A stretch of 55,306 bases of DNA. Source: Psammoneis japonica. Taxonomy: Eukaryota. The notes beneath the pieces are model-generated. The model was not told the DNA's origin, ran no database searches, and saw only the letters and a list, made by a program, of their open reading frames with translations. Where the stretch lies: the NCBI GenBank assembly GCA_008632985.1, contig QPGO01000213.1, forward strand, positions 62,001-117,306. Reading direction: 5' to 3'. Made by a program: the position numbers and the translations under genes. Positions within the stretch are counted from its first letter, which is position 1; each line of letters starts with the position of its first letter. Below, in pieces: positions 6,801 through 46,770 of this stretch.

Positions 6801-8820
6801 GCAGGATTTGTGAAAAAGGTTGTGTCCAAAGCTGCCTGCAGCACTGGCCCAAAAAACTCACAAACCAACGCGCAAACAGGTGGGCCAAAGTGAAACACAT
6901 GTCAAGCAGTTGTGTGCTGCAGTGTGAAAAGAAGCTTGTGCTTCAGAAATGTCTGTTTCAAATTTGGTGCCACACAACTGCTGTGTGTCAACTTGGATGA
7001 AGCAAGTGCACCAAAGCTTCGGTCTTGACTTTGGTTTTAACATCAAATGCAGCCAATGATCTGTTGCGTGAAAATGATGGCACATGATCTGAGATCAAGA
7101 ATTTGGGCAATCAGATCTCTCTTTTGAGGATGCCCTGGTTTTTTCATTGTTGCTTGCACACCATCTGCAAAGCCACTTGGGGTGCTGGTGGCTCTGGCAC
7201 ATTTGCAACACCACAATTGGCACTTGGCACACTTGACACAACACAGCTGGCACTTGAGTGATTCACTGGTGTGGATTTGTTGACGTCCTGCTCATCTGCA
7301 GGGATTGTTTCCATCCATCATGCACTTCTTTGCACACCTGGCTTGGATTCTTGGGGAGAGTCTTGCACTCAACTGGCAAGGTTTGCTGGAGACTCACAGA
7401 AATCCTGCTGTTGGCACTCTCTGTCAGAATTTCCTCCCAAGCAGCCGCCCGCCCCCAGCTGGTGGCTGCTCCTGCTTCCCACACACAACCCCAAATGTGC
7501 CCCAGCAGGTCGATGCCATGGGAGACGCTGACCAAACATTTGCCAACAACTCTCCAACATTTTCAGACAACGGCGACAAATTCAAATGCTGAGGACCACT
7601 GCTGCTTTTGCATTTCACAGCTGAGCTCAGACACTGCCCGTCTGGTTCCTGATGAAAACTTTGGGGCACCAACATGACCTCCACCTGTTTTCATCAATTG
7701 AAACTTGACAATTTTGACATCCACTTCTGCAGGAGATGTGGTGCCATTGCCTCCAATCTTTGCCAACCCAAAGTCATGATTGGAAGGCTTCACCATTGCA
7801 AAGGGCAGCTTTTCAGCAATGGCAAGGTCTTGAAAGTTGCAATCTCGAAGGATCACCACATTGCCCCATCCACCCCCAAAACATGCAAGGCAACCTTCCT
7901 TGTTGATGGCGCAGGACTGGTCACCGTTGTCAAACACAGCCATGACATTTCAAGTGGGGAGGCTGCAAACCACTCTGGGATTGCCACAAGAAATGCCTGA
8001 ATGACCAAGTTGGCCCGATGCACTGCTGCCCACAAGAAAGATTGATTGTTGTGAGACACAGACCCATCGACAAATCCAGGGGCAACAGAGATGTGCAACA
8101 ACGGCATCAACAATGACTGTGACGGAACAGTGGATGAGGCCAATTGCATCAAATCTCCATCCACTTTGCCTTTGGATGCCCCGTCCGCATCGTTGCAACC
8201 ATGGAATGAGCCATCAGTCTCTTTTGCCCCCCAAGTGTGCACCCCTTGCATGCACCCTCAAATGTCCCGAGCAGCACACCATCCATTTCTTCCTCCCTGT
8301 TGTTGTCCCAAGCAATCCCATGTGTCTGTTCCTTTCTCGCCGAGCACTGGCATGCTCCCCTCCAGTGACCCCTTCTCAGTTGCTCCTTTGGCGGTCTGTT
8401 CTCCTGCCTGTGAGAGAAGACAAAAGCGCCTCTCTCAATGAAAAAATGAGCATTTCAAAAGGAAATTTGCCGCAACAATCATGAGCTGCACATGAAGCCA
8501 CGACACATGGTGCATTGCTGTGGACATGCATTGCAGCCATGAAAACATGGCACGATGAAGGCCTTTTGTTCAAGTTCTCTTCGGCCCCATTCTCGGATCA
8601 CAACAGCTGTGCAACCCCCCCCATGATTTGTTCTCAATGCATGAGGACAAGATGTGAAAGAAAGCAACAAAGTCTGTTGTGGCATGGCAATGATCTGTGC
8701 AAGGCACACAAGTGCCGTGCTGTTTTTGCGCCGCGGCAAAACATGGGTGCTGCTGTGCCAACAACTCCTCCTCCCACACCTCTCGCGGTGCAATCTCGTC
8801 CGGCTGGCTCTTTAAGCAGC
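830..8820. mobile_element. Degenerate repeat/TE-derived block A, depleted of TpA and CpG (element family not identified)
   Basis: About 18 TA dinucleotides in ~8 kb (manual count), very high TG/CA, no intact gene; ORF translations are rich in C/H/Q and nearly lack Y. TE origin is inferred by analogy to blocks C and D, which contain retroelement motifs. Confidence 0.65.
7380..8400 (+). pseudogene. Hypermutated remnant of a secreted-type protein with a MopE-like putative metal-binding repeat
   Basis: Hydrophobic leader LTEILLLALSVRISSQAAA near 7390. At 8045-8150 it reads DTDPSTNPGATEMCNNGINNDCDGTVDEANC, matching the D-x-D-P-x-x-NPGA-x-E-x-C-x-x-GID-N-D-CDG-x-VDE repeat. Many stops and frameshifts. 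Confidence 0.6.
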
Positions 8821-9064
8821 AGCTGTCAATCTACCTGCCTTTTCCTTTTCATCATCTACACTGTTGCTTGTATGTGCATCTCATGACGCCAATGCTAGAG
8901 ACTCTGTTGTTCATGTTGCAGCGAGTTGCGTGTGATTTTCTCTCATGCCAAAGAAAAACACCAAAATTTCAGAAATTTTGAAAATTCGAAAATTTTCGTT
9001 GAAAAACAAAAAAAGTAAGCAAACGAGGCGAGCGAGCGAAAGATCCAACTTCGTCTACACAGTT

Positions 9065-9156
9065 AGTACTTGGGTTTCTGTTGTGGCGGTTGTATCGAAT
9101 CATCAACAGTACTTGGGTTTCTGTTGCGGTGGTTGTACAAGTATCGAATCATCAAC
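9065..9156 (+). repeat. Two-copy tandem repeat (43/49 bp) just upstream of the next gene
   Basis: agtacttgggtttctgttg...gtatcgaatcatcaac occurs at 9065-9107 and 9108-9156. Confidence 0.85.
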
Positions 9157-9196
9157 GAGCCGAAGCATCCTTTACGCTGTTGTAATCAAACGAGTC

Positions 9197-10520
9197 ATGT
9201 CCAACGAAATTGCCGGAGAAGAACAGCAAGAGCGAGACGTGCAGAAGCCTGTCTGTCACTCAGATTTGCCAGAGAAATTGGGCACTAAATTCAAGCATTT
9301 GTTCGCTCGTATCCACGTCTTGCGCACTGTCGAACCAGGAGAAAGACAGCGAGCAGGACAGGAGCTCTCCGATCTCATCATACTAGAAGTTAACGAGGAA
9401 CCGATCCTCGCAAGAGCTGTTCACAAGGGTGGAAATCAAAATGGATGGTATTTGCTTGCTACTGCGATTTATTGCGAGTTACGTCAGAATTCCATTCTTT
9501 ATGAAGCCAACAAGTTTCTGATCAATGCAAACCCACATGCCTTGCTGTGGAAATACAGCAATGCACCCGGTTCTCACCATCTTCTGGTATTCATCGGCTC
9601 CAGACATTGTGCTTTGATGCCCTGGATTGCGCGGAACCATGAGTGGATTTTTGAGCACCCGACCGTCATTCAAAACTACTCCCAAATACTTCACTACGGC
9701 CTTGTTTGGCAACATGCTTGTCTTCGAGATTGTGAGGCATCCATTGTTCGTGAGTTCTTTGAGGTGCGCCCTGCAGATCTCGGCAACACCGCCGGAGGGC
9801 TTGTCTGCATTTTGTTATTTGGGGATCGGGATGGGGAGAGTGCGACTTGGGCTTGGTGAAATGGATGGTTCAAAAGCATCCCGAAAGCCTGAAATATCGC
9901 GACGACAAGGGAAGGACTGCTTTGTCCGTGGTGTGTGAGTGCATTTCACCTGTTGATAACATTTTCTTAAAAGATTCCAGTATATCATGGATGGAGAACA
10001 TGGCAAGCATTTGTCGCTTTTTCATGCAAGAGTATCCAGAGGCTATCCGCATCAAGACACGCATCAAGACACGCATCAAGACACGACGACTGCGTTGCAA
10101 TGATCGGTACCTGCCACTTCACTACCTGGCCCTCCGATGCAACAAGAGTCCGGTCCAAGAACTTGTGGTTGAATTGTTGAAAGCATATCAAAGTTGTCGA
10201 CTGTGCCTTTTATCCAAGCAATCGGGCCAGTTTTGCAACAGCAGGCTGAGCTGAAACAAGAGGAAGAGTCCCTTGAGAAAAATATAAAGCTCTTTAGTGA
10301 ATCTTCAGAATCTGATGCGGGGGCTGGCGTGGTCCCCGAGAAAACCAGCGTCCCCGAGAAAACCAGCGAAGTACTCTCGGCGTGGATGACCGCTCGTGTG
10401 GCGACATTCCGGGATCAACATGCTACCTTGGAGGTGGTGATTGCCGACATCAAAGAAGCCTTTGAAGAAGATGATAAACGAAGTGACATCGAAGGAGAAA
10501 GCGATGAAGACTCCTTGTAG
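9197..10520 (+). CDS. Hypothetical protein with ankyrin-like helical repeats and a C-terminal coiled coil; two frameshifts (~9833, ~10188)
   Basis: Three consecutive ORFs join into one protein if single bases are restored (GECDLGLVKWMVQKHPESLKYRDDKGRTAL; AYPKLSTVPFIQ). Motifs YLPLHYLA and YPEAIR; acidic tail; internal (IKTR)x3 and (VPEKTS)x2 tandem duplications. Confidence 0.65.
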
Positions 10521-11129
10521 ACACTGAAAGAGATGAGGAGAGTCTGGGAGCCCAGGCTGATGCTGATGAAGGTGATTTGGGTGAGGCGGATCGGGACGCA
10601 AGGCCATACTGAGCGACTGCGTAAAGATGCCATTGCTGGACTGTAAAGCTTTGCAAAGTGCGGCGTGGGGAACACTAAGAAAGCATGGGAGCAAACCTTG
10701 TTTATCTAATGCACTAGAAACTGTACATCTGCCTATTATCGCTCTGCCGGATAGATTTACTGTGTGCTTTCGTCTCTAAAGAATATTGAAAGCTAAACAG
10801 TGCTGCCCGCATCCTCTGGAGAGCAATGATAAGGCCGACTACCAAAAAACAATGTACTGCAGCAAGGCAAGCATCGCCTTGATCAAATTAGGCTAACCTC
10901 AAAGCATTACGTCCTCTCTACTACTGTACAGCCGTAGCTACCGGTAGGGCGGACTAGCAGCAGTGACACGTCGATGAGTTTCAAGTATACGGTACATACC
11001 AGGTTCATTACAGTATTATGTTTTATGACAAGTATATGCAGGCCTTAAAGACTAAAAGAATGTCCACACTGCGCTCTTTCATCAAGACTGCGTCAACACC
11101 ACGCGCGTTACGCTCATTATGGCAATCCT

Positions 11130-12199
11130 TTATTGTTCAACAAGATTCCCGTGATCAAAAATAAATTGTTGACCCATTTCCAATTGCATGGCTTGAGACA
11201 CGTGTTGGACGGGTGTCATGGTCCATACTGCGATATTGGCAATCTCAAAGACAGCATTATTGTTGGTGGTAATAAGCGGAGGATTGCCAAAGGTAATGCT
11301 GGCTTGTGTCGTGCCCCGTTCCAAGGTTGGATCAAAGACAAGCGTGGACATCGCATCGAAGCACCATCACTCAATAATGACTACTTGAGCCAATAATTAT
11401 CTTGTTGAATGCAAAAGGGCAAATACGGACGGAGTGCATCCATCGTGGGTGGTGACAGGACGTGTGGGTAGCAATTCGTGTCATGCACGTGCGTCGCCAA
11501 AATGACAGTTGGAATCGTACTCTCTTCCTCTTCTTTTGAATCTTTGTCTTGTAGTGCTTCTTTTGAATTTTCTTGTTGTTTTACTCCAAAGAGTTTGTCA
11601 AGCAAGCTGGTTGTCCGTTCTTCTTGTTGTTGATGTGGTGGTTCGTCGTCGACTTGTCCCTTTTGGAGAGAACGCGTGGAGGATGGTGCTGCTTTGGGGG
11701 TACTCGAGCCATACTTCCTTTCGAAAGGGTGGTTCATCTAGATTCAATTTGGGTAAAAAAAACCTGGACTGCGGTCGTCGGAGGTTGCTTGACAAACTCA
11801 GAACTGCTTTCATTATCGTCATCATAGAGTAGATCGCTGCTCAGTACGTGCTGCACCTTTTCCAACTGTTCCTCGGGCACATTTTCGGCCAATACAAGAC
11901 TCTGTAAGAAATCGGCTTCATATTGATTCAAGCATGACTTTTCCGGAAAATGGATTGACGCAAATATTGACGATGATTGGTTTTGTTTCGTCTTTTGGTA
12001 GAATCGTATAGCTTTTCTTGTGTAGCCGAGAACGTTACTGCTACGCTCTGTTTCTCCGAAAGAGCCTGCAACAAGTCTTGTTCGGCAGGTGTAAGAGACG
12101 ATCGCCGCGTCGTCAATCGTGTTTGCTTCGATACAATGCCGATGGCAAAATGATGGGCTTGCAGGATCCCTGCGATGAATAAGTCTCTGTGGTGTCCAT
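11130..12199 (-). pseudogene. TLDc (OXR1/NCOA7-like) domain pseudogene
   Basis: HVLSPPTMDALRPYLP...NYWLK*SLLSDGASM, then STLVFDPTLERGTTQASITFGNPPL...FEIANIAVWTMTP. It has an in-frame TAG where Tyr is expected, a 5-bp cgatg duplication, further frameshifts, and the centre of the TLDc domain is missing. Confidence 0.8.
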
Positions 12200-12319: not shown

Positions 12320-14340
12320 GTAACATCACCGCGTGTGCGACGACATCGAAAGCAACAGCAGCAACCGATGATGATCATTCGAAGACGGCCAGAAGTGAGA
12401 TGCCGGCAGAGCTTTGCCAACGTCAAACATGATGTCAATGGGAATCATTCGGCTCTCAGAGGCATCACGTAGAAATTGTGCAGGAGAGCACCAGAAAAAA
12501 GCCCCAAGTCCATCCGTCCCGTCCACCTGCTGCTTCTGAACACTGGCTTCTCGGGAAATCGATTTGTGCCTTTGATCAGATGACATTTCAATCATAAAAG
12601 TGGGTGCCACACATTTGGTGCAGTCGTGCGAGCAAGGGGCAGTTGTCGTGCACATTCATTCGTGTGCTGCGCAAGTGAGATCCGAGTTGATTCTGGCACC
12701 GCAGTCAGCATGTTGCTGGGTTTTTGTTGTCTGCTCAGCCTGGCATTGATGTTTTCTGTGAGCAACAGGTTGGCACACTTTTGGCAAGGGCAGTCTGGCC
12801 CAAGCAGGGTCATCTGGTGCTTGCGTGGGGAGAGACCAGCACCGCCCTCCCATTGAGGACATCTGGAGCTGATCTGGGACAAAGTGATGCGTGATCTCCT
12901 GAGGCAACAATGAGTTGCTCACACCAAAGTGATGCTCATTCTCACTTCAACACAGCGGCACACCTCCAAGTGTGGCTTTCACCATTTCTCAGCTGGTTTG
13001 GCAGAGATTCTGTGCAGCGCTGCTTTGGCTTCCTTGCCAAACAGCCCATCACCTGAAACGACAAAGGGAGCAAAGTGGCGACATTGTTCAAGGCAGGGCT
13101 TGAGGTGCTTGCGCTTTTTCTCTCATTGGCATTGTCCCAGAACTTCTTCTGGTGTCTTGGGCAGGTGTGATTTTGCGTCTGTGTCTGGAGTGCGAACATC
13201 CATGATGGCATCTGTCCTTTTTTGTCCCAAACCCTTCAGACAAGAGATCTCCGCGGTCGCCATCCTTGGACATGTTGGAGTTTGTGTTGCTTTGTGAGTT
13301 GTTGGAGGTGCCCGGGCTTCCTGAGATGCAACCAATGGGGTCAACTCGGCTCTCAGAGTCATTGCATGGAAATTGTGCAAGAGAGCACCAGAACAAAAAG
13401 TCTCAAGTCCATCCATCCATCCACCCACATCTGAGCACTGACTTCTCGGGAAATCGATTGAAATGTCATCTGATCAAAGGCACAGCTCTTCACCATGTGG
13501 GTCAAAATGATTTTGATCAGATGACATTTCAGCTGACTTCCCGAAAAGTCATCAGCCCCAATCTCACCCTCCCACACAATGTTGTGCACATTGTTTCTAC
13601 TTTGCACACAGTTTTGCATTTTTCCTCAAATGCAAAACATCAATTGTGACCGACGCTACATTTTTGAATGACTCTGTGGGCACAACATTGCAACACGAGC
13701 GATGGTGGTGTTTGCACAACACAAATTTGCATTCACCGTTGACACAGAATGTAAACCAGAAATTTCAGAAAATTGCAACACGCCCAATGCCACACAACAT
13801 GCACACACACACTGAACACGCCACTCGCCGATGTCAATCACCATCAAAGACATCTTCCGGAATTGATGACAACTGTTTCTGGAGCTGCTTGTGAATGTCC
13901 GTGTGAAGCCAACTGGAAATGCTCTCACCCTTTTCATCTGAATCTGGTTTGATGAGCTGAGTTGTGGAAGTGAGCCCATGCTGTCGGGAGTGGAAAGACC
14001 CCTTGCTGTGGCAGCTCTTCGTCAACCTCACTCTCATGCCGCTCGCTCTCGCATGTCTTCAGAACAGCAGGTTTGTTTTTAAAAATGTCATCTCAACGGA
14101 TTCACCTGGTGACCCCTTTTAAAGGAATAAGCAGAACTTGGCAAGGTTGATTTGCCTCTGATGAATTCTGCAGCAGCACGCCCTGTGGATGTCCGGGACG
14201 AAATCTTCTTCAATTTGACACTGTTGCCAAAAGTGTTTTAACATGCGCTCAATTGCAGCATTGTCAATGAGCATGCAAAATTCTTTTGGCAACTGACTGG
14301 CAGTTTTCAATGACGTTGCCGCATCGGCTCTTTGCCATCG
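12320..14340. mobile_element. Degenerate repeat block B (TpA-depleted) with ~150-200 bp direct repeats at 12435-12590 and 13333-13531
   Basis: Shared tcggctctcagag...gaaattgtgca.gagagcaccaga...cttctcgggaaatcgatt...tttgatcagatgacatttca. The second copy also has an inverted repeat tgaaatgtcatctgatcaaa / tttgatcagatgacatttca (13460-13531). Confidence 0.7.
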
Positions 14341-14519
14341 TCGTTTGTCGGCTTTTCTCGTGCTTCAGTGCGTGGGCGGGCGGGCAAAACAGTCAGTCGA
14401 ACTAGTCAAGTTTCTTCGAACACCAATTTTATTAATTTTTTCAATTCTATATAAAGTTGATTATGGAACGGTTTCTACGGGATGTTGTGCCCATACATAC
14501 ATAGATTCCTGTTGTTCGG

Positions 14520-14668
14520 TGCGGGCGACAGCAAGACTTTTCAAAAATTTCGTTTTTCCCAAAGAAACACATAATTTCGGGAAAGTGGTGAGTCGTGTTT
14601 CCCAAAAAACAATGATTTTCAGGAAAAAAGTATTTTTGGGAAATATGTGCGGGCGACAGCAAGACTTT
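14520..14668 (+). repeat. 22-bp direct repeat pair in an AT-rich region upstream of the ferredoxin-domain gene
   Basis: gtgcgggcgacagcaagacttt at ~14519 and ~14647. Confidence 0.7.
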
Positions 14669-14765
14669 CGAAAGATCGCGAAGCGAGCTTTATTAGATCA
14701 GCTCAGCGCCAGCGGCGGATCGCAAACGAAAGCAGGAAACGCATCAGCCGCTCTGTAATATCACC

Positions 14766-34743: not shown

Positions 34744-35309
34744 AGAAGGACACACTGACAGCGACGTATGAAAGTCCATTATTCTGGCCGAGAATTGAGT
34801 TAAACTTAAATCCTTTATACTTTGTAACGATGGTTTTGCTCTCTATCTATGACTGGTTAATGTGTAGCTTGGGAAACATAAGTAACCCGAGAGCTATGGC
34901 AGGTTGTCACCTCCTGCATCAATGTACTACACCTTTGCTTGGAATGTTTTGGAACGCACACCGTGAAAACCGAAAAAAGAATTCCTTGCCAAGTGCCACC
35001 GAAAAAATCAACTACCCTGCCGATCAACATCATGACGTTATTGTTTGTGCTTTTCCTTCTTCCTGTCACGCGCGCCACTCTACCAGCGCTGAATCTCACA
35101 AATTGCTGGCAACATGTGGCAATGAGTTCCGACTCAGACTTCCAAGTGGAAACGGGGGAGAGGGGGCACAACAACCCGCAAAGAACAACATGCAGCATCT
35201 ATGCAGGTTTCTGCGCTGGTGCACAATGGATGATTTTCAAGAAGCAGAAACTCTGCTGTGCCTGTGTGCATCTCATTTCTTTTGTCGCACCGCAGCTCTC
35301 TCAGAGTTC

Positions 35310-37770
35310 CCTGGCCAGATGGGCCTTGCAGCGCTCAACCACAATTCTGACAGTGTTCCCAGGGTTCCACCAGAGATTGCTGACATCCTTGGTCTGCATT
35401 TGGTGTTTTTGTGGGTTGCATCAGGGCTTTCCTTTCACTCTGGAGCTGCGAGAGTCCCCCAGCTCTGACATGGATGAAGTGACTGGGGGGCACAACTGCG
35501 GTGCAAGATCGGCCTCACAGCACTCTGCCACAGTTCTCAAAGTGTTCCCTGGGTGCTGTCAGAGACCCTCAATGCTGTCAGCCTGCAGTTCTTGTGTTGG
35601 TTGGTCACACATCTGGGTGTCCTTGCACTCTGGAGTTGGGAAATCACAGCTCTCACTCTGGCATGGATGAAGAGTGACTGTGTGGGGGGTGCAACTGCAA
35701 ACAGATGAGCCTTAAAACACTCCACCACTGTTCTCAAGTGTTCCCCAGATTGCACCAGAGAGTTGCAGTTTCTTTGGCCTGCAGTTGTTGTTTGGTCAGT
35801 CAGAGTCAAAGCTGTGTTCTGCCTCAAGCTTCCGTGTGCAGTCTCCAATGGGGGGGTCAAAATGGCCCATTTGTCACAGCATGCAGAATCTGCATGGGTT
35901 CCAGCATTGAACTTGCTGCAAAAGACAGAGTCAGCACACATGACCTGCTCTGTGCAAGTGCCACCAAAAAACTCAAAAACCAACATCATGGTGGGCAATC
36001 GGAGCGGATTTTGGTCATTTCATGAAAAAACCAAGTGAATTTTTTACTCTCATCTCTGCCAGATTTCTGCAGTCAATCTCTGAACAGCCCGTGTGTCATT
36101 CCAGATGGGCGGAAGAGAGAAGAGTGAAGACTCTGACTTCAAAAACTGAGCAAGGCATCAACAACCATCTTTGGTCTTTTGTCACCATGGCTCCATCTCT
36201 GAGGGCATTAAAATCTCAATGGGAAGCCAGAGAACACTTTGAGAGCAGTGGTTGAGAGTTGCAAGGCTTGCCTGCTGGTGCAGCTGTGCCAAGCAAAGCC
36301 TCCAACCTCACACAACTGCTGCTGGCCAACTCAACAATTGCAGGCTGAGGGCATTGAAGCTCTCCAGAGAAACCCTGGGAACTTTTTGAGAATGGCAGCA
36401 GAGTGTTGCAAGGCTAATCTGGTGCAGTTGCAACCCCCCAACTGCTCAATCCATGCCAAAATGAGAGGAGAAGAATTCCCAGCACTGCTCCAGAGCAAAA
36501 AGACACCCTGCAGTGCAATCAACTGACCCAACAACTGCAGGCTGAGGGCATTGAGTCAAGGTCTCAAGAAGAACCCAGGGAACACTTGAGAATGGTGATG
36601 GAGTGTTGCAAGGCTCATCTGGCACAGTTGCAGCCACCAGGGACTCAAACCATGCCAGAGTGAGAGCTGAAACTCCTGACTCCAGAGTGAAAAGACACAC
36701 ACTGATGCAGCCAACCCACCCAAAAATTGCAGGCTGAGCACATTGGATTTCTCCAGCAAAGCCCAAAGAACACTTTGAGAGAATGGCGGTGGAGCATTGC
36801 AAGGCTCATCTGGAGCAGTTGCAGTCACCAGTCACTTGATCCATGCCAGAGTGAGAGCTGACAAAACTCCTGACTCCAGAGCAAAAGGACACACTCGTGC
36901 AGCCAACCAACCCAAGAACTGAGAGCTGAGGGCATCAGGGCTTGACTGCAGGCTGAGAGGATTGAAGGTCTCCCATGGAACCCAGGGAACACTTTGAGAA
37001 TGGTGGTGTGGCATTGCAAAAGGCTCATCTGGCACAGTTGCAGCCACCAGACACTTGGCCCATGCCAGAGTGAGAGCTGAAACTCCTGACTTCAGAGTGA
37101 AAAGACACCCTGATGCAACCAACCATTACAATGACTTCAGCCTGAGAGCATTGAAGGTCTTCAGTGGATTCCAAGGAACACTTTGAAAATGGCGAGTGAT
37201 TCATGGCACTGAAACTCCCAACTCCAGAGTGAAAGGACACCCTGGCACAACCAAACAGCCCAACAGCTGCAGGCTGAAGGCACTGAAGATCATGCACGGA
37301 ACACTTTGCGAATGGTCGTGGAGTTTTGAAGAGCTCATCTGGTGCAGCTGCAGCCCCCAGTCCCTCAATCCATGCAAAAATGAGAGGAGAAAAAAATTCC
37401 CATTTGCTCCAGAGTGAAAGGACACCCCCTGGTGCAACAAACCAACCCACAACTGCAGGCTGAAGGCATCAATGGTCTCCTGTGGAACCCAGGAGGAGGC
37501 CACACTTTGAGAATGGTGATGGTGGGTTTGTTGAAGGGCTCATCTGGTGCTGCTGCAGTCCCTGGTCACTCAATCCATGACAAAATGAGAAGAGAAAATT
37601 TCCCAACTGCTCCAGAGTGAAAGGACACCCCGATGCAACCAACCAACCCAACAGCCACAGGCTGAGGTCATTGAGTCAAAGGTCTCAAGAGGAACCCAGG
37701 GGACCATTTGAGAATGGTGGTGGAGTGTTGAGAGGCTCACCTGGTGTGGCTGCAGCCACAATGCTCCAGG
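35310..37770. repeat. Diverged ~190-200 bp satellite: about 3 units in minus orientation (35310-35800) and about 9 units in plus orientation (36230-37770)
   Basis: Anchor ggaacactttgagaatgg at ~36386, 36586, 36776, 36994, 37183, 37306, 37507 and 37708; its reverse complement (ttct..agtgttccc) at ~35345, 35535 and 35730. Confidence 0.85.
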
Positions 37771-42000: not shown

Positions 42001-42206
42001 CGGTGACGTGTTTTCGGTGTGCAAACGGGGTGTTTTGTTTGACGCGTCTCACTGTATGACGCCACGTATATTTATCTCTTTTATTGCCATTCGTATACAC
42101 CCATTGAGCTCGAAGGAATCACGTCGAATACAGCTAGCCGCGTACAGAAAGTTCTTCGGCAGTACAAGTCGATAGTCGATTGATCAAACGAATTATTGGC
42201 CGAGCC

Positions 42207-42449
42207 TTTTTCAGCTTTAACAGAACCTACCTTTGGAGAAGAATATACTACACCGCAAGTTGATGATGGTGCAGTGCAGCCAAGAACATCGTTCAGGGAG
42301 TCTTCGTTTCGGGAATCAATGCAACCGTCTTTTTCAGCTTTAACAGAACCTTTGGAGAAGAATATACTACACCGCAAGTTGATGATGGTGCAGTACAGCC
42401 AAGAACATCGTTCAGGGAGTCTTCGTTTCGGGAATCAATGCAACCGTCT
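42207..42449 (+). repeat. Recent tandem duplication of ~120 bp
   Basis: ttttcagctttaacagaacc...gggaatcaatgcaaccgtct occurs twice, differing by a 4-bp indel and gtgca vs gtaca. Confidence 0.9.
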
Positions 42450-42469
42450 TTGTATACGGACAAACCTGT

Positions 42470-43200
42470 AGTGGTAAGACCTACAAGATGCAGGGTTTCG
42501 GTTCAATTGAAAAGAAGGCTACAAATCTACCGGTGGAGGCGTTGTACATACCGGTATGACTACCAATGATCCATTTAATCACATTGCCGAGACACGAGAC
42601 ACCAGACCGAATGTTCTTGGTTCGAACGTCATTCTTTGAAGTCTTCAACGAGGAAGTGCCTGAGTTGCTCGGCGAGAACGATGTGCACAAGTACGAGAAG
42701 ACCCTCGACATGGATGGTTTGTGAACAGCCACGAGGAGGATGTTAACGATTTTGATCGCATCATGGAGGTACTATTTGCTGGAGAGAAGAACCGGGCTGT
42801 AGCATCTACCTGCATAAATGAACGCTCTTCCCTATCTCATACCATTCCGTATCACCGTCGAAAGTCGGTGGAAGACGGATCAAGATTTATGACGATACAT
42901 CAGTGATAAGCATAACCACGAAAACAAAGATTACGGTGCCATTCATATCTACACTCTGAACTTGGTCGACTCAGCTAGTTCCGAGATCGTTCCTCACTGT
43001 AATAGTCAGAAAGAAGGAGGAAAGATCAATAAGTGGTGAGTTGCTTTGAGAGCTTGCAAACTCTCATCTATTGTACTCTCAACTTTTACACAATACCTGT
43101 CCTTTATCTGCAGTCAATCTCGCTTTGGCAAACTGTTAAAGGAAACACTCCGAGGAGCCTTTAACTCCGAAGAGACTGCTACATGTTGTAGGAACGATTA
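42470..43200 (+). pseudogene. Kinesin motor-domain pseudogene fragment (kinesin-7/CENP-E-like)
   Basis: SGKTYKMQG (P-loop), FLVRTSFFEVFNEEV.ELL, GEKNRAVASTCINERSSLSHTI (switch I), TLNLVDSASSE (decayed LVDLAGSE), KEGGKINK, then a gtgagt...cag intron. Multiple stops. Confidence 0.85.
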
Positions 43201-44169
43201 ACGTGATCTCCCCATCGGGTGAAATGCGCATGGAATAAATATTTAAACTAAACTAAAACAAGATGTGTTGACTGCTAGTCCCCATCAGATTTGCGTCTGA
43301 TGACTCATGCTCCCTCACCACGGCACGGTCGTCAACAAGAAGGAGTGCTGCTGCCTGTGGTACCCTTGGGGGGCCCCGTGCAGGTTGTTAATAGCCCGTC
43401 AGCTCTTACAACAGCCATGTTCAATGTTTTTTTACGATTAACATGAAAAACTCGGGGCTTTCTTAAACTTGGTGCTTTCCTAACCAAGGGGCCTGTTGTT
43501 TGCTTGGCGCCCCGCCAAGGTTCTGGGCTTGTCTTTTTCATCGAGGTGCTTTCCTAACCTCGCCGTTTTAGTTGTAAACATCGAGTTTCGTCTCGAGTGG
43601 GGTTTCCTGAGGGTGCAGAGAATGGTACACTCTCTGTGCATCACCCAACAGGCGGTCGTCCTACCGTACCGAGACACTCGTCAGTGCCAGCAATTGTAAG
43701 AATGTTTAAACCTGCATGAGAAGGAAGAAGGTATAACTCAGCCAGTTTGGCATCGTTGGAAAGGGGTTAGCACTTCTTCATGTCTTGCAGAGCGCCGCAA
43801 CCATACTGCAGTGCAGAGAGGGCGGTCGATGCAGAAGAAGTGAGACGAAAACACGTCGTGCAGCGAAGATCACGAGACGACGAACAAACAATGTGGCCAA
43901 ATCTTTATTGAGCTGGCCTGCCTTTTTCAATTCAAACACTCACATCACGCCTTCTTGGCTTCGAATGAGCTGCAACATATTATATACATTGATTAGAACA
44001 ACAATTCATTCGTGGCGCCAATTTGAACGGAAAAGAGGCCTCCCACCGCACCTGTGCAACGCTTTTCGCGCCTTCCGCGGCGATTTCAAAAGAGTGTGGC
44101 TGGCGGGCAAAGTGCGCCTAAAAATAAATAAGGAGTTTTTTAGCGGGGACGTTAAAGTTTTGCCGTTGA

Positions 44170-46770
44170 AGCAATTCAAAACCGATGGCGTGCCTTTCCG
44201 ACGGCGGATTGAAATCAACATTGTCTTTGAAATTTTCAAATCAACCCAGACGAACTTTTTTTGCTCAACTCGCAGCTTCCATGAGAACATTTTTTCTGAA
44301 TCACATGGGCATTCTGCAGGAGTCGATGAGGTTGTGCGGCGAACAACACTCCATTCATGTGGGGTTCGACGAGTGGAGGACACTGTTCTGCAGGAATCAC
44401 TGAGATTCTGAGAGTGTTTTTGGAGCAGGAAAATGTTTGGGCAAACCTTTTCAGACAAAGACAACACTCTCAAAGTTCAAGTTAGAGCAGGTGAAGAACC
44501 TTGAGGAATCCTGCAGGCTGCACAGTGCATTTGACCCACCAACACATTTGACCCTGGGGCAAAGATTTGTGAAAAGCGCAGTGGAGACATTGAGCTTTTG
44601 CAGCTGAAGCAGTTCAAAACCGATGGCATGCCTCGCTTGTCTCCGACAATTCAAACAAATTGTTTTTGAAATTTTCAAATGAACCCACAATGCATTTTTT
44701 GCTCAACTCACAGTTTTGGCCCAGCATGAGAACATCTCCAAATCACATGAACCCATGCATTCTGCAGAAGTCAGCAGGTGTGCCTCTTTGCGAGAATTGT
44801 CCCTTCCTGTGCATTGGCAGGAAGTGCAGCCACAATCCATGCACAGGCCCAGTGCTTGCCGAACAGCACCAACAGATGAGGGAAAATTGGCGGGAGTTTT
44901 GCCGGCTTTCTTGGACAGGGCCTCAAAGCCCATTCAATCAAAGATGGGGTTGCCCTCGTCAATGACGTGAAGGCTGTCACTGCCGCAATTCTTGCTCGGA
45001 AGACAGACATCAAATTCAATGTCACAACCCCTCCAATGAAAAAAGACAACAGCATGGTGCATGCCCAAGTGTGACATCGCGCAACAACAATGCACAACAC
45101 CTCCCATCAGCGTGCAAACAGATGCGTCTGGCCCATGTCAAGATTGGGTGGCATCATCACAAGTCCGTGGACTTGGGGCAGAAAGACCCCCATTTGCTTG
45201 CAATCACAGAAAGTTGTGCCTCTGACCAGGAGGAGGACACCAAGCTGTGCAGAACAACTCCAAACCAATCTGGCCACACTCCTCTTTCTGTTTGTTGGAC
45301 ATCTCTCACTCCAGCTGTCACCTCCATGATTTGAGAAACGGCACCTGCCTCTGTCACCATTTGCCATCATGTTGAAGACAGTCACATCAAACGCACCATG
45401 TGGGTTTTCACCCATGTCAACTGGAAAGCATGCGTTGTCAGCTGTGTGCTGTCCAAAAACTTTCCTCAGTGTGGTGAAGCATGTTTTCATGCGCCTGGTG
45501 AGGGAAGAAGAAAGCATCTTCTCAGCCTTTTTGTTTGTGCAGTGCTTTGCAAACTGGCGCCGTTGGCTGTTGTCATCATCAGGATTTGGGCCCAAGGCAA
45601 AGAGTTTGAGCAACTTGATGAAAGCTTGGTTGAAGAACTTGCAGCAGTGAAGAAGGTCAACTGAAAGCGGGGGGGGGGGGGCACATGACAGCTGTGGGAC
45701 AGTCGCTTTCTTAATTTAGAATGTCGCTCAACAGGGAGTTGCAATCAACATGGACAGGAGGGGCATCAAAGTCCTTGTCAGCAGGAGAGAGGTTGTGTGC
45801 CAGCCCCAGTGGATTCTTGGGATCAAACAAGGAATCTGTGACCAGGCCAACATCGGCGGGCAACAGGAGGAGGAGAAGCTGCATCATCTGCTGGCGTTGG
45901 CAGTGGCTGCATTGGTGGCAGTCACATTGGCAGCAGCGGCATGCAATCAACCAACCTCCGTGTCGGCAATGCAGGGGTGGGCACCATTGCAACATGGTCT
46001 TCGCTCTCAGCAGCAATTTTGTTGACTCACAACGAAAATTTGCCTGCAAAGCCAGGCCATGGCAATGACAAAGTTGGCTTGCTCTGAAGCCCAAAAGTTT
46101 GCTCCTTGTTTTGGCTTGCCAAATTGGCTGGAGTTGCATGCCCAATGGTCTTCGCTCTCAGCAGCAATTTTGTTGACTCACAACGAAAATTTGCCTGCAA
46201 AGCCAGGCCATGGCAATGACAAAGTTGGCTTGCTCTGAAGCCCAAAAGTTTGCTCCTTGTTTTGGCTTGCCAAATTAGCTGGAGTTGCATGCCCAGTGCT
46301 GCTGCGCGCAGCTTTGACACCCGCGCTCCTTCTTTTTTAATTCTGGCGAAGTTTGAGTTGGTTGGCAACAGAAAGCTCATCTCTGGTCTGCTTTTTTTGG
46401 CTTGTCTCTAGAGTCTGGGCTGCTGCTCTGTGTGTGTGTGCATGCTACAAAACAGTTGACCATTGTGGCAAGGCAATTTGTTGGCCACAACAGAGGGCTT
46501 TGCTTGTGCGCGGCAATGTTTGGTTGGTTGGCGCGAAAATTGAAAATGTTGTGGCAGCATGCACCCCCCAAAAAGTGCAGCCAAATGTGGGTCTTCATTG
46601 GTGGCAGATGCACGAAGAATCAAGCTGGGGGACAAGGTTGACAGACTGCATGTGCAGCCAGTCCTTCCAGTCTGCTGCACTGTGCATCACAGATCTGCAG
46701 TCACAGTGACGTCTGTTCTTGCTCAGTTGTGCCGACAGTCTGTCAATGGTTGAGAAGTTTTTTTTAGGAT
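44170..46770. mobile_element. Degenerate repeat/TE block E; related sequence continues to the left with normal composition
   Basis: TA essentially absent from 44170 onward; internal diverged repeat 44148-44323 vs 44586-44772. Confidence 0.65.
45994..46295 (+). repeat. 151-bp tandem duplication with a single mismatch
   Basis: 45994-46144 vs 46145-46295; the only difference is aaattGgctg (46126) vs aaattAgctg (46277). Confidence 0.95.

What the first reader, a model, noticed from the sequence alone, without database searches (positions are those of the whole stretch)
12320..14340. TpA is erased more completely than CpG, and paired repeat copies capture intermediate states
Seen: block B, and also 7400-8800 and 44170-44400, retain many CGs but very few TAs. 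The repeat copy near the block edge reads cat-CA-CG-TA-gaaattg (~12462) and the interior copy reads cat-TG-CA-TG-gaaattg (~13361). Inference: TA conversion is at least as fast as, or spreads further than, CpG decay, so it is not a minor by-product of it.
Basis: partly seen in the sequence, partly recalled or inferred. Interest (0 to 1): 0.7.

Follow-up and report, generated by a model that had tools for sequence, protein, structure and literature searches.

The report
TA erased faster than CG
In this diatom's dead transposons, TA letter pairs are rewritten to TG or CA about six to seven times faster than CG pairs decay, and the two processes can run apart, so TA loss is a separate targeted DNA mutator and not a side effect of DNA methylation.

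Summary
Confirmed. Block B (about 12323-14402) of a diatom genome is a stack of transposon relics with 10 TA and 66 CG, against about 83 and 112 expected. Measured against inferred parental states, TA loss exceeds CG loss in 50 of 56 copies from three families (window copies: TA 59/60, CG 33/54); median rate ratio 6-7.5. TA changes are pure transitions on both strands, not strand-clustered, slowest in TAA/TTAA. The two processes separate: one copy lost 16/20 TA and 0/19 CG, while copies on contig C312 lost TA 13/95 and CG 48/143. 'Faster' is supported; 'spreads further' is not: margins I could polarise were other repeats or parentally TA-free, and both fronts weaken in the same tails. Best reading: a domain-targeted, switch-like TpA mutator (adenine deamination most likely, enzyme unidentified) beside ordinary 5mC decay. 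The signature matches the TpA hypermutation of Bigelowiella natans (2026 preprint, which never mentions CpG).

The parts
12323..14402 (.). TA-depleted block B: stack of transposon relics with near-complete TA loss and partial CG loss
12323..12435 (.). 113-bp margin with 0 TA and 10 CG, no other genomic copy found; possible spread into non-repeat DNA, unproven
   Evidence: P about 0.013 at flank rate, post hoc
12436..12593 (+). Edge copy (partial) of a ~330-bp MITE-like family with terminal inverted repeats; TA lost 6/7, CG lost 2/5
12466..12471 (+).
12597..13345 (-). 5'-truncated non-LTR retrotransposon relic (3' end; RT plus C-terminal nuclease-like part, CRE-like by recalled motifs); TA lost 33/33, CG lost 25/40
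13333..13690 (+). Interior copy of the same MITE-like family; TA lost 20/20, CG lost 6/9; site 13363-13368 reads TG-CA-TG
13670..14495 (+). Internally deleted copy of a ~1170-bp repeat family; the TA front lies inside it: 8 of 8 aligned TA converted at 14110-14287, 8 of 8 kept at 14403-14494
7400..8800 (.). Right part of block A: 0 TA, 34 CG; a contig of run X1 differs at only two places over 7216-9249, TA vs CA (8086) and CG vs TG (8247)
44154..45488 (.). Left part of block E with a 98.6% duplicate on C148: TA already exhausted in both copies, CG sites still diverging (13 single CG differences, 0 TA differences)

Best explanation
Two separate mutational processes act on transposon-rich chromatin domains of this diatom. 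(1) Ordinary decay of methylated CpG to TpG/CpA, slow and continuing. (2) A TpA-specific mutator acting on chromosomal DNA: it changes one A:T pair of a TA step to G:C on either strand, giving TG or CA, one site at a time. It switches on for a domain rather than for a sequence, then removes about 80% of TA steps while only 7-26% of CG steps are lost, and stops only when TA is exhausted (TAA/TTAA last). SHOWN: direction, strand symmetry, context, rate order, uncoupling, fronts inside elements. INFERRED: that CG loss is 5mC deamination; that the TA lesion is enzymatic, most likely adenine deamination to hypoxanthine by a TadA/ADAT-family enzyme recruited to silenced chromatin (about 50% within this explanation; enzyme not identified); that it serves genome defence.
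For: Parental states inferred per column: LINE subfamily A TA lost 633/783 vs CG 426/1378 (11 copies), subfamily B1 310/370 vs 159/851 (7 copies); validation: inferred TA at codon positions 1-2 is followed by C/T in 14 of 15 and 19 of 22 cases. Per base in young subfamilies: A of TA to G 235/655 and 299/714 with 0 transversions; other A to G 0.002-0.014; C of CG to T 0.09. TG:CA outcomes 325:305 and 161:146; no strand clustering; all codon phases hit alike, 0.83-0.90. Uncoupling: L108 vs TA-intact L020, 16/20 TA changed, 0/19 CG; C312 copies TA 13/95 vs CG 48/143, p=0.0005. Switch-like: 40 copies of a 690-bp family, 35 with at most 0.20 TA loss, 5 with 0.77-0.94, none between; all 5 converted copies abut a TA-poor flank vs 12 of 35 others, p=0.009. 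A to G by 3' base: C 0.53, T 0.47, G 0.36, A 0.23. Order: C148 duplicate shows CG still decaying after TA is gone. Same signature measured per generation in B. natans. TE CG methylation by DNMT5 in a model diatom (PMC9998398 passages); C5-methyltransferase genes present here.
Against: No enzyme identified: the deaminase hits are ordinary families, the best a TadA-like ORF. The one natural ADAT2 shown to edit DNA prefers GAA, not TA (PMC10354150 passages). Sequence alone cannot tell an A lesion from a T lesion. No strand-coordinated runs, which a processive ssDNA deaminase would give. Methylation was not measured in this organism. Copies were found by similarity and capped at 40 per search, so proportions are not genome-wide; copies of a subfamily are not fully independent. 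TA and CG loss drop together in LINE tails (CG 54/287 vs 8/103, p=0.007), so they share a domain signal and are not wholly independent.
Confidence: 0.72

Rival explanations
1. Same targeted, separate process, but the lesion is on thymine: a T modification at TpA in repeats (oxidised T such as 5hmU/5fU, or another adduct) that mispairs with G, giving T to C.
For: Outcome and symmetry are identical to the A-lesion model; lack of strand clustering fits a stable mark that mutates site by site. 5hmU marking of transposons in dinoflagellates is recalled, not checked.
Against: Tet_JBP search found no match in G000, but the controls did not ring either, so this is weak. No positive evidence for modified T.
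Confidence: 0.17
2. Error-prone patch repair: 5mC deamination creates T:G mismatches, and a polymerase-eta-like enzyme miscopies nearby A:T pairs at WA motifs.
For: TA and CG loss fall together in LINE tails and correlate across copies (rho 0.46).
Against: AA to AG is 0.013 against TA 0.36-0.42, with zero transversions at TA, unlike the recalled WA spectrum; TA loss occurs with no CG loss and CG loss with little TA loss (C312); no same-strand patches.
Confidence: 0.05
3. TA loss is a compositional by-product of CpG decay, or reflects parental TA poverty of these elements.
For: Background TA o/e is already about 0.6; some TA-free margins are parentally TA-free.
Against: Simulated CpG decay leaves TA o/e 0.60-0.68; intact family copies carry normal TA (54 per 1180 bp; 50 sites per 691 bp); copies show independent TG or CA at the same parental TA.
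Confidence: 0.01
4. Editing at the RNA or reverse-transcription stage (ADAR-like), or selection against UpA or TA target sites.
For: The LINE passes through RNA; ADAR favours a 5' U (stated in the B. natans preprint).
Against: TG and CA outcomes are equal on the sense strand; MITE-like elements with inverted ends are hit as hard; fronts continue across element junctions and stop inside elements; dead copies lose 66-80% of TA with 1-3 other changes per 200 sites.
Confidence: 0.02

Closest known systems
TpA hypermutation of integrated NCLDV and virophage DNA in Bigelowiella natans (Mettrop et al., bioRxiv 10.64898/2026.01.13.699255; parts 1-4 of 5 of the text read, supplements closed)
   Same: A:T to G:C transitions only, only at TpA, both strands, localised domains, foreign or mobile DNA, apparent on/off behaviour.
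   Different: A diatom, not a chlorarachniophyte; targets shown here are a LINE and MITE-like elements; depletion runs to near completion (o/e 0.03-0.08 vs 0.45); coexists with CpG decay, which the preprint does not mention (0 occurrences of 'CpG'); flanking-base rule and fronts inside elements. No per-generation rate here.
CpG decay of methylated transposons (5mC deamination; DNMT5-dependent TE methylation in Phaeodactylum, PMC9998398 passages)
   Same: Accounts for the CG to TG/CA component: both strands, repeat-confined, slow.
   Different: Cannot remove TA; here it is the slower process by about 6-7-fold.
Repeat-induced point mutation (RIP) of fungi
   Same: Dinucleotide-specific transition hypermutation of repeats on both strands.
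   Different: Opposite direction (RIP makes TA from CA; here CA to TA is 0 of 1267 and 1 of 1293); repetition alone does not trigger it (three 99.5-99.9% identical copies are TA-intact).
ADAT2/TadA DNA adenine deamination (amphioxus BjADAT2, PMC10354150 passages)
   Same: Chemistry that would give A to G in DNA.
   Different: Preferred context GAA and also C to T at TCG; no TA specificity; no link to this genome.

Membership tests
B. natans-type TpA hypermutation | Only A:T to G:C transitions, at TpA | tested here: met
   235/655 and 299/714 to G, 0 transversions; other A contexts 0.002-0.014
B. natans-type TpA hypermutation | Both strands of chromosomal DNA (TG and CA) | tested here: met
   325:305 and 161:146
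B. natans-type TpA hypermutation | Confined to domains of foreign or mobile DNA | tested here: met
   (transposons; viral inserts not examined)
B. natans-type TpA hypermutation | About 1000-fold rate per generation | not testable with these tools
   only relative, partly saturated fractions
B. natans-type TpA hypermutation | Non-constitutive, on in some lines only | tested here: inconclusive
   bimodal copies and a spared contig are analogous but are not lines
B. natans-type TpA hypermutation | Shared enzyme (ADAT2 proposed, unproven there) | tested here: inconclusive
   nine PF00383 matches, none diagnostic
CpG decay (5mC deamination) | C to T at CpG on both strands in repeats | tested here: met
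   0.09 at CG vs 0-0.016 elsewhere; explains the CG part only
CpG decay (5mC deamination) | Sufficient to explain TA loss | tested here: not met
CpG decay (5mC deamination) | 5mC present at these CG sites | not testable with these tools
   methyltransferase genes present; methylation not measured
RIP | C to T at CpA raising TpA | tested here: not met
RIP | Triggered by homology across the duplicated sequence | tested here: not met
   near-identical TA-intact copies; fronts inside elements
ADAR-type RNA editing | A to G on the transcribed strand only | tested here: not met
Polymerase eta WA mutagenesis (features recalled) | AA as well as TA mutated, with transversions | tested here: not met

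The most novel reading that the evidence does not exclude
Diatoms carry a dedicated, switch-like DNA adenine (or thymine) editing system that is recruited to silenced transposon domains independently of 5mC decay, is the first and dominant inactivator of new insertions, and can be absent from whole chromosome segments such as C312; shared with Bigelowiella it would be an SAR-wide 'reverse RIP', and TA loss versus CG loss gives two independent clocks (time since targeting, time since methylation) for every copy.
Probability: 0.4. Interest if true: 0.88.

Novelty: new variant of a known kind. Interest (0 to 1): 0.62.

Why it matters
It turns a compositional oddity into a ranked, separable pair of mutational processes. 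The TA mutator, not methylation decay, does most of the early damage to transposon copies here. Diatoms are genetically tractable, so the enzyme that is only guessed at in Bigelowiella becomes directly testable (knockouts, mutation accumulation, modified-base detection), and the spared contig and the bimodal family give built-in controls for what recruits it. It also means transposon ages from raw divergence are badly inflated in this genome.

Tried and rejected
Pfam found nothing in block B frames or in the LINE ORF; the RT call rests on the Atlas feature match to RVT_1 clusters (0.97) and recalled motifs. Strand-coordination test: 1 of 10 TA bins at p<0.05, read as chance. Spread beyond repeats: change points put the CG front further inside than the TA front at 8 of 10 window edges (median 128 bp, sign test p=0.11), but a faster rate on one gradient predicts this too; the L047 margin proved to be another repeat; the 44154-44254 margin is TA-free in a 92% paralogue that abuts its own depleted block; 14288-14402 is parentally TA-free. 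No allelic contig for 9000-12440 in G000. Tet_JBP search blank with blank controls: no verdict. No RNA holder listed. Collapsed-assembly chimera as the cause of kept TA in L040 rejected: it would give CG as often as TA at those sites, and none is seen. Rows left out: 7 of 29 aligned LINE copies (older subfamilies without close sisters), 1 of 28 aligned MITE copies (L117) plus L123 (same insertion as L125), ambiguous columns (34-108 per LINE run); the C312 copy of the 690-bp family (TA 1/47, CG 3/42) is not in the pooled C312 count; the 690-bp family (TA>CG in 32 of 40, mostly near zero) is not in the 50-of-56 tally. Literature searches for TpA loss in diatom repeats listed only the Bigelowiella preprint as relevant; a base-editor context search gave nothing usable. 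The C148 duplicate could be read only over the 4 kb held.

Full report
Setting. The window is G000:C215:62001-117306 of a 91-Mb assembly. The named homologues of its VTC gene are diatom proteins at 62-66% identity, so it is a diatom; I did not go further. Five blocks have TA o/e 0.03-0.08 against 0.6 outside, and CG o/e 0.10-0.55 against 1.0.

Observation. 12320-14340 has 10 TA and 66 CG, where background rates give about 83 and 112. 7400-8800 has 0 TA and 34 CG, 44170-44400 has 0 and 12. The two quoted sites are as described.

Anatomy. Block B is a stack: a 113-bp stretch with no other copy found (12323-12435), a partial copy of a ~330-bp MITE-like family (12436-12593), the 3' end of a 5'-truncated non-LTR retrotransposon on the minus strand (12597-13345; shared 3' ends, ragged 5' ends; RT by Atlas features; CRE-like by recalled motifs), a second MITE copy (13333-13690) and a deleted copy of a ~1170-bp family (13670-14495). 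The two MITE copies share 13 letters seen in at most 1 of 25 other copies, so they are of one sub-lineage, but whether they are two insertions or a local duplication is open. The third count is inflated by searching with the edge copy.

I inferred the parental state of every pyrimidine-purine step by a mixture model and counted losses per copy. LINE subfamily A: TA 633/783, CG 426/1378, TA ahead in 10 of 11 copies; subfamily B1: 310/370 and 159/851, 7 of 7; the window copy and three older ones, 4 of 4. MITEs: 6 of 7 and 19 of 20; a 450-bp family: 4 of 7. Total 50 of 56, with 2 unmutated ties and 4 reversals. Window copies pooled: TA 59/60, CG 33/54, p=3e-7. Median hazard ratio 6.1 (A) and 7.5 (B1). 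The inference checks out against the reading frame: inferred TA at codon positions 1-2 is followed by C or T in 14 of 15 and 19 of 22 cases. Searching with a TA-rich LINE copy returned the same close set, so query bias does not drive the LINE result. Simulated CpG decay alone leaves TA o/e at 0.60-0.68, whereas adding a 6.7-fold faster TA rate reproduces the blocks.

Signature. In young subfamilies the A of TA goes to G in 235/655 and 299/714 bases with no transversion; A in AA, CA, GA 0.002-0.014; C of CG 0.09. TG and CA outcomes are equal on the sense strand and all codon phases are hit, which excludes RNA editing and selection on protein. Neighbouring sites are not strand-coordinated.

Intermediate states and uncoupling. 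L108 differs from TA-intact L020 at 16 of 20 TA, 0 of 19 CG and nowhere else over about 300 bp. Conversely three copies on contig C312 lost TA 13/95 and CG 48/143, and repeat blocks along that 62-kb contig keep much TA. In a 690-bp family, 35 of 40 copies have at most 0.20 TA loss and 5 have 0.77-0.94 (196/236 TA, 40/209 CG), none between; the search ranks by likeness to an intact copy, so intermediates should have been favoured, which suggests a short transit. All 5 converted copies abut a TA-poor flank, against 12 of 35 others. A 98.6% duplicate of block E's edge differs at 13 single CG sites and no TA inside the block, where only one TA is left: TA goes first, CG decay continues. A contig of run X1 differs from the window at two places in 2033 bp, one TA/CA and one CG/TG, the window holding the derived letter in both; n is tiny.

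Against 'spreads further'. The CG front lies inside the TA front at 8 of 10 window edges (p=0.11), which a faster rate on a shared gradient also predicts. Where I could polarise a margin it was parentally TA-free, another repeat or ambiguous. In four young LINE copies the TA front lies inside the element (bodies 123/133, tails 20/73) and CG loss falls in the same tails (54/287 vs 8/103, p=0.007). In the window the right front lies inside the third repeat. So both processes follow a chromatin-like domain, and repetition alone does not trigger TA loss: three 99.5-99.9% identical copies are intact. The 113-bp left margin is unresolved; an X1 contig joins 12322 to 14700 with unknown letters between.

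Mechanism. Shown: a DNA-level, double-strand-symmetric, context-reading TA mutator, faster than and separable from CG decay. Inferred: CG decay is 5mC deamination (DNMT5-dependent TE methylation in Phaeodactylum, PMC9998398, passages; methyltransferases present); the TA lesion is enzymatic. Adenine deamination is my first choice, thymine modification second; sequence cannot separate them. Deaminase genes exist but none is diagnostic, and amphioxus ADAT2 prefers GAA (PMC10354150, passages). A polymerase-eta route fails on AA and on uncoupling.

Known systems and novelty. It works like the TpA hypermutation of Bigelowiella natans (preprint, parts 1-4 of 5 read; its supplements were closed and may hold context data), meets its sequence-level features and cannot be tested for rate or enzyme. 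It is not RIP, ADAR editing or CpG decay. Searches listed no paper on this in diatoms. The scan has noted the phenomenon many times in this genome; a word search for a rate comparison found nothing, though I saw only short excerpts. Verdict: real, a new variant of a recently described kind; the contribution of this finding is the rate order and the uncoupling. Interest 0.62.

Noticed in passing
G000:C312 (L040, L132-L137): A 62-kb contig whose repeat blocks show CG decay but keep much TA; three copies of two families lost TA 13/95 vs CG 48/143. Why it is spared is unexplained.
   Followed up: partly
window 12322-14700: A contig of run X1 joins 12322 to 14700, so another haplotype lacks all of block B; about 125 unaligned letters between are inferred from the record length. 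The joint sits exactly at the last TA.
   Followed up: partly
L171-L210 (690-bp family, 40 copies): TA loss is bimodal: 35 copies at most 0.20, 5 copies 0.77-0.94; L185 and L187 are converted mainly at the end facing a TA-free flank.
   Followed up: partly
window 42200-45488 vs L218 (C148): 98.6% duplicate: 3 differences in about 1950 bp outside block E, 30 in 1335 bp inside, 11 of them at neither CG nor TA steps, hinting at a generally raised mutation rate in the blocks or conversion/selection outside.
   Followed up: partly
L161-L163 (C301, C297): C5 cytosine methyltransferase ORFs, some broken, lie in TA-erased but CG-rich DNA (16-23 TA, 139-167 CG per 3.5 kb); possibly mobile or virus-derived methyltransferases hit by the mutator.
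   Followed up: no
L141-L143: Three 1170-bp copies 99.5-99.9% identical and TA-intact although next to TA-free blocks; 3 of their 4 substitutions are TA/TG differences.
   Followed up: partly
window 35300-37760: Degenerate ~190-210-bp tandem array in both orientations inside block D.
   Followed up: no
window 9150-12180 and 42090-44250: Multi-copy gene-like segments (one with a weak ankyrin hit) with paralogues at 70-92% elsewhere in G000; TA-normal although repeated.
   Followed up: no
L149:1327-2055: TadA-like deaminase ORF with HAE...PCVMC motif and an N-terminal extension; probably an organellar tRNA editor, not shown to act on DNA.
   Followed up: partly
window 18695 and 18718: Both differences of a 367-bp X1 contig just outside block C are TA/TG polymorphisms, one in each direction.
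   Followed up: no
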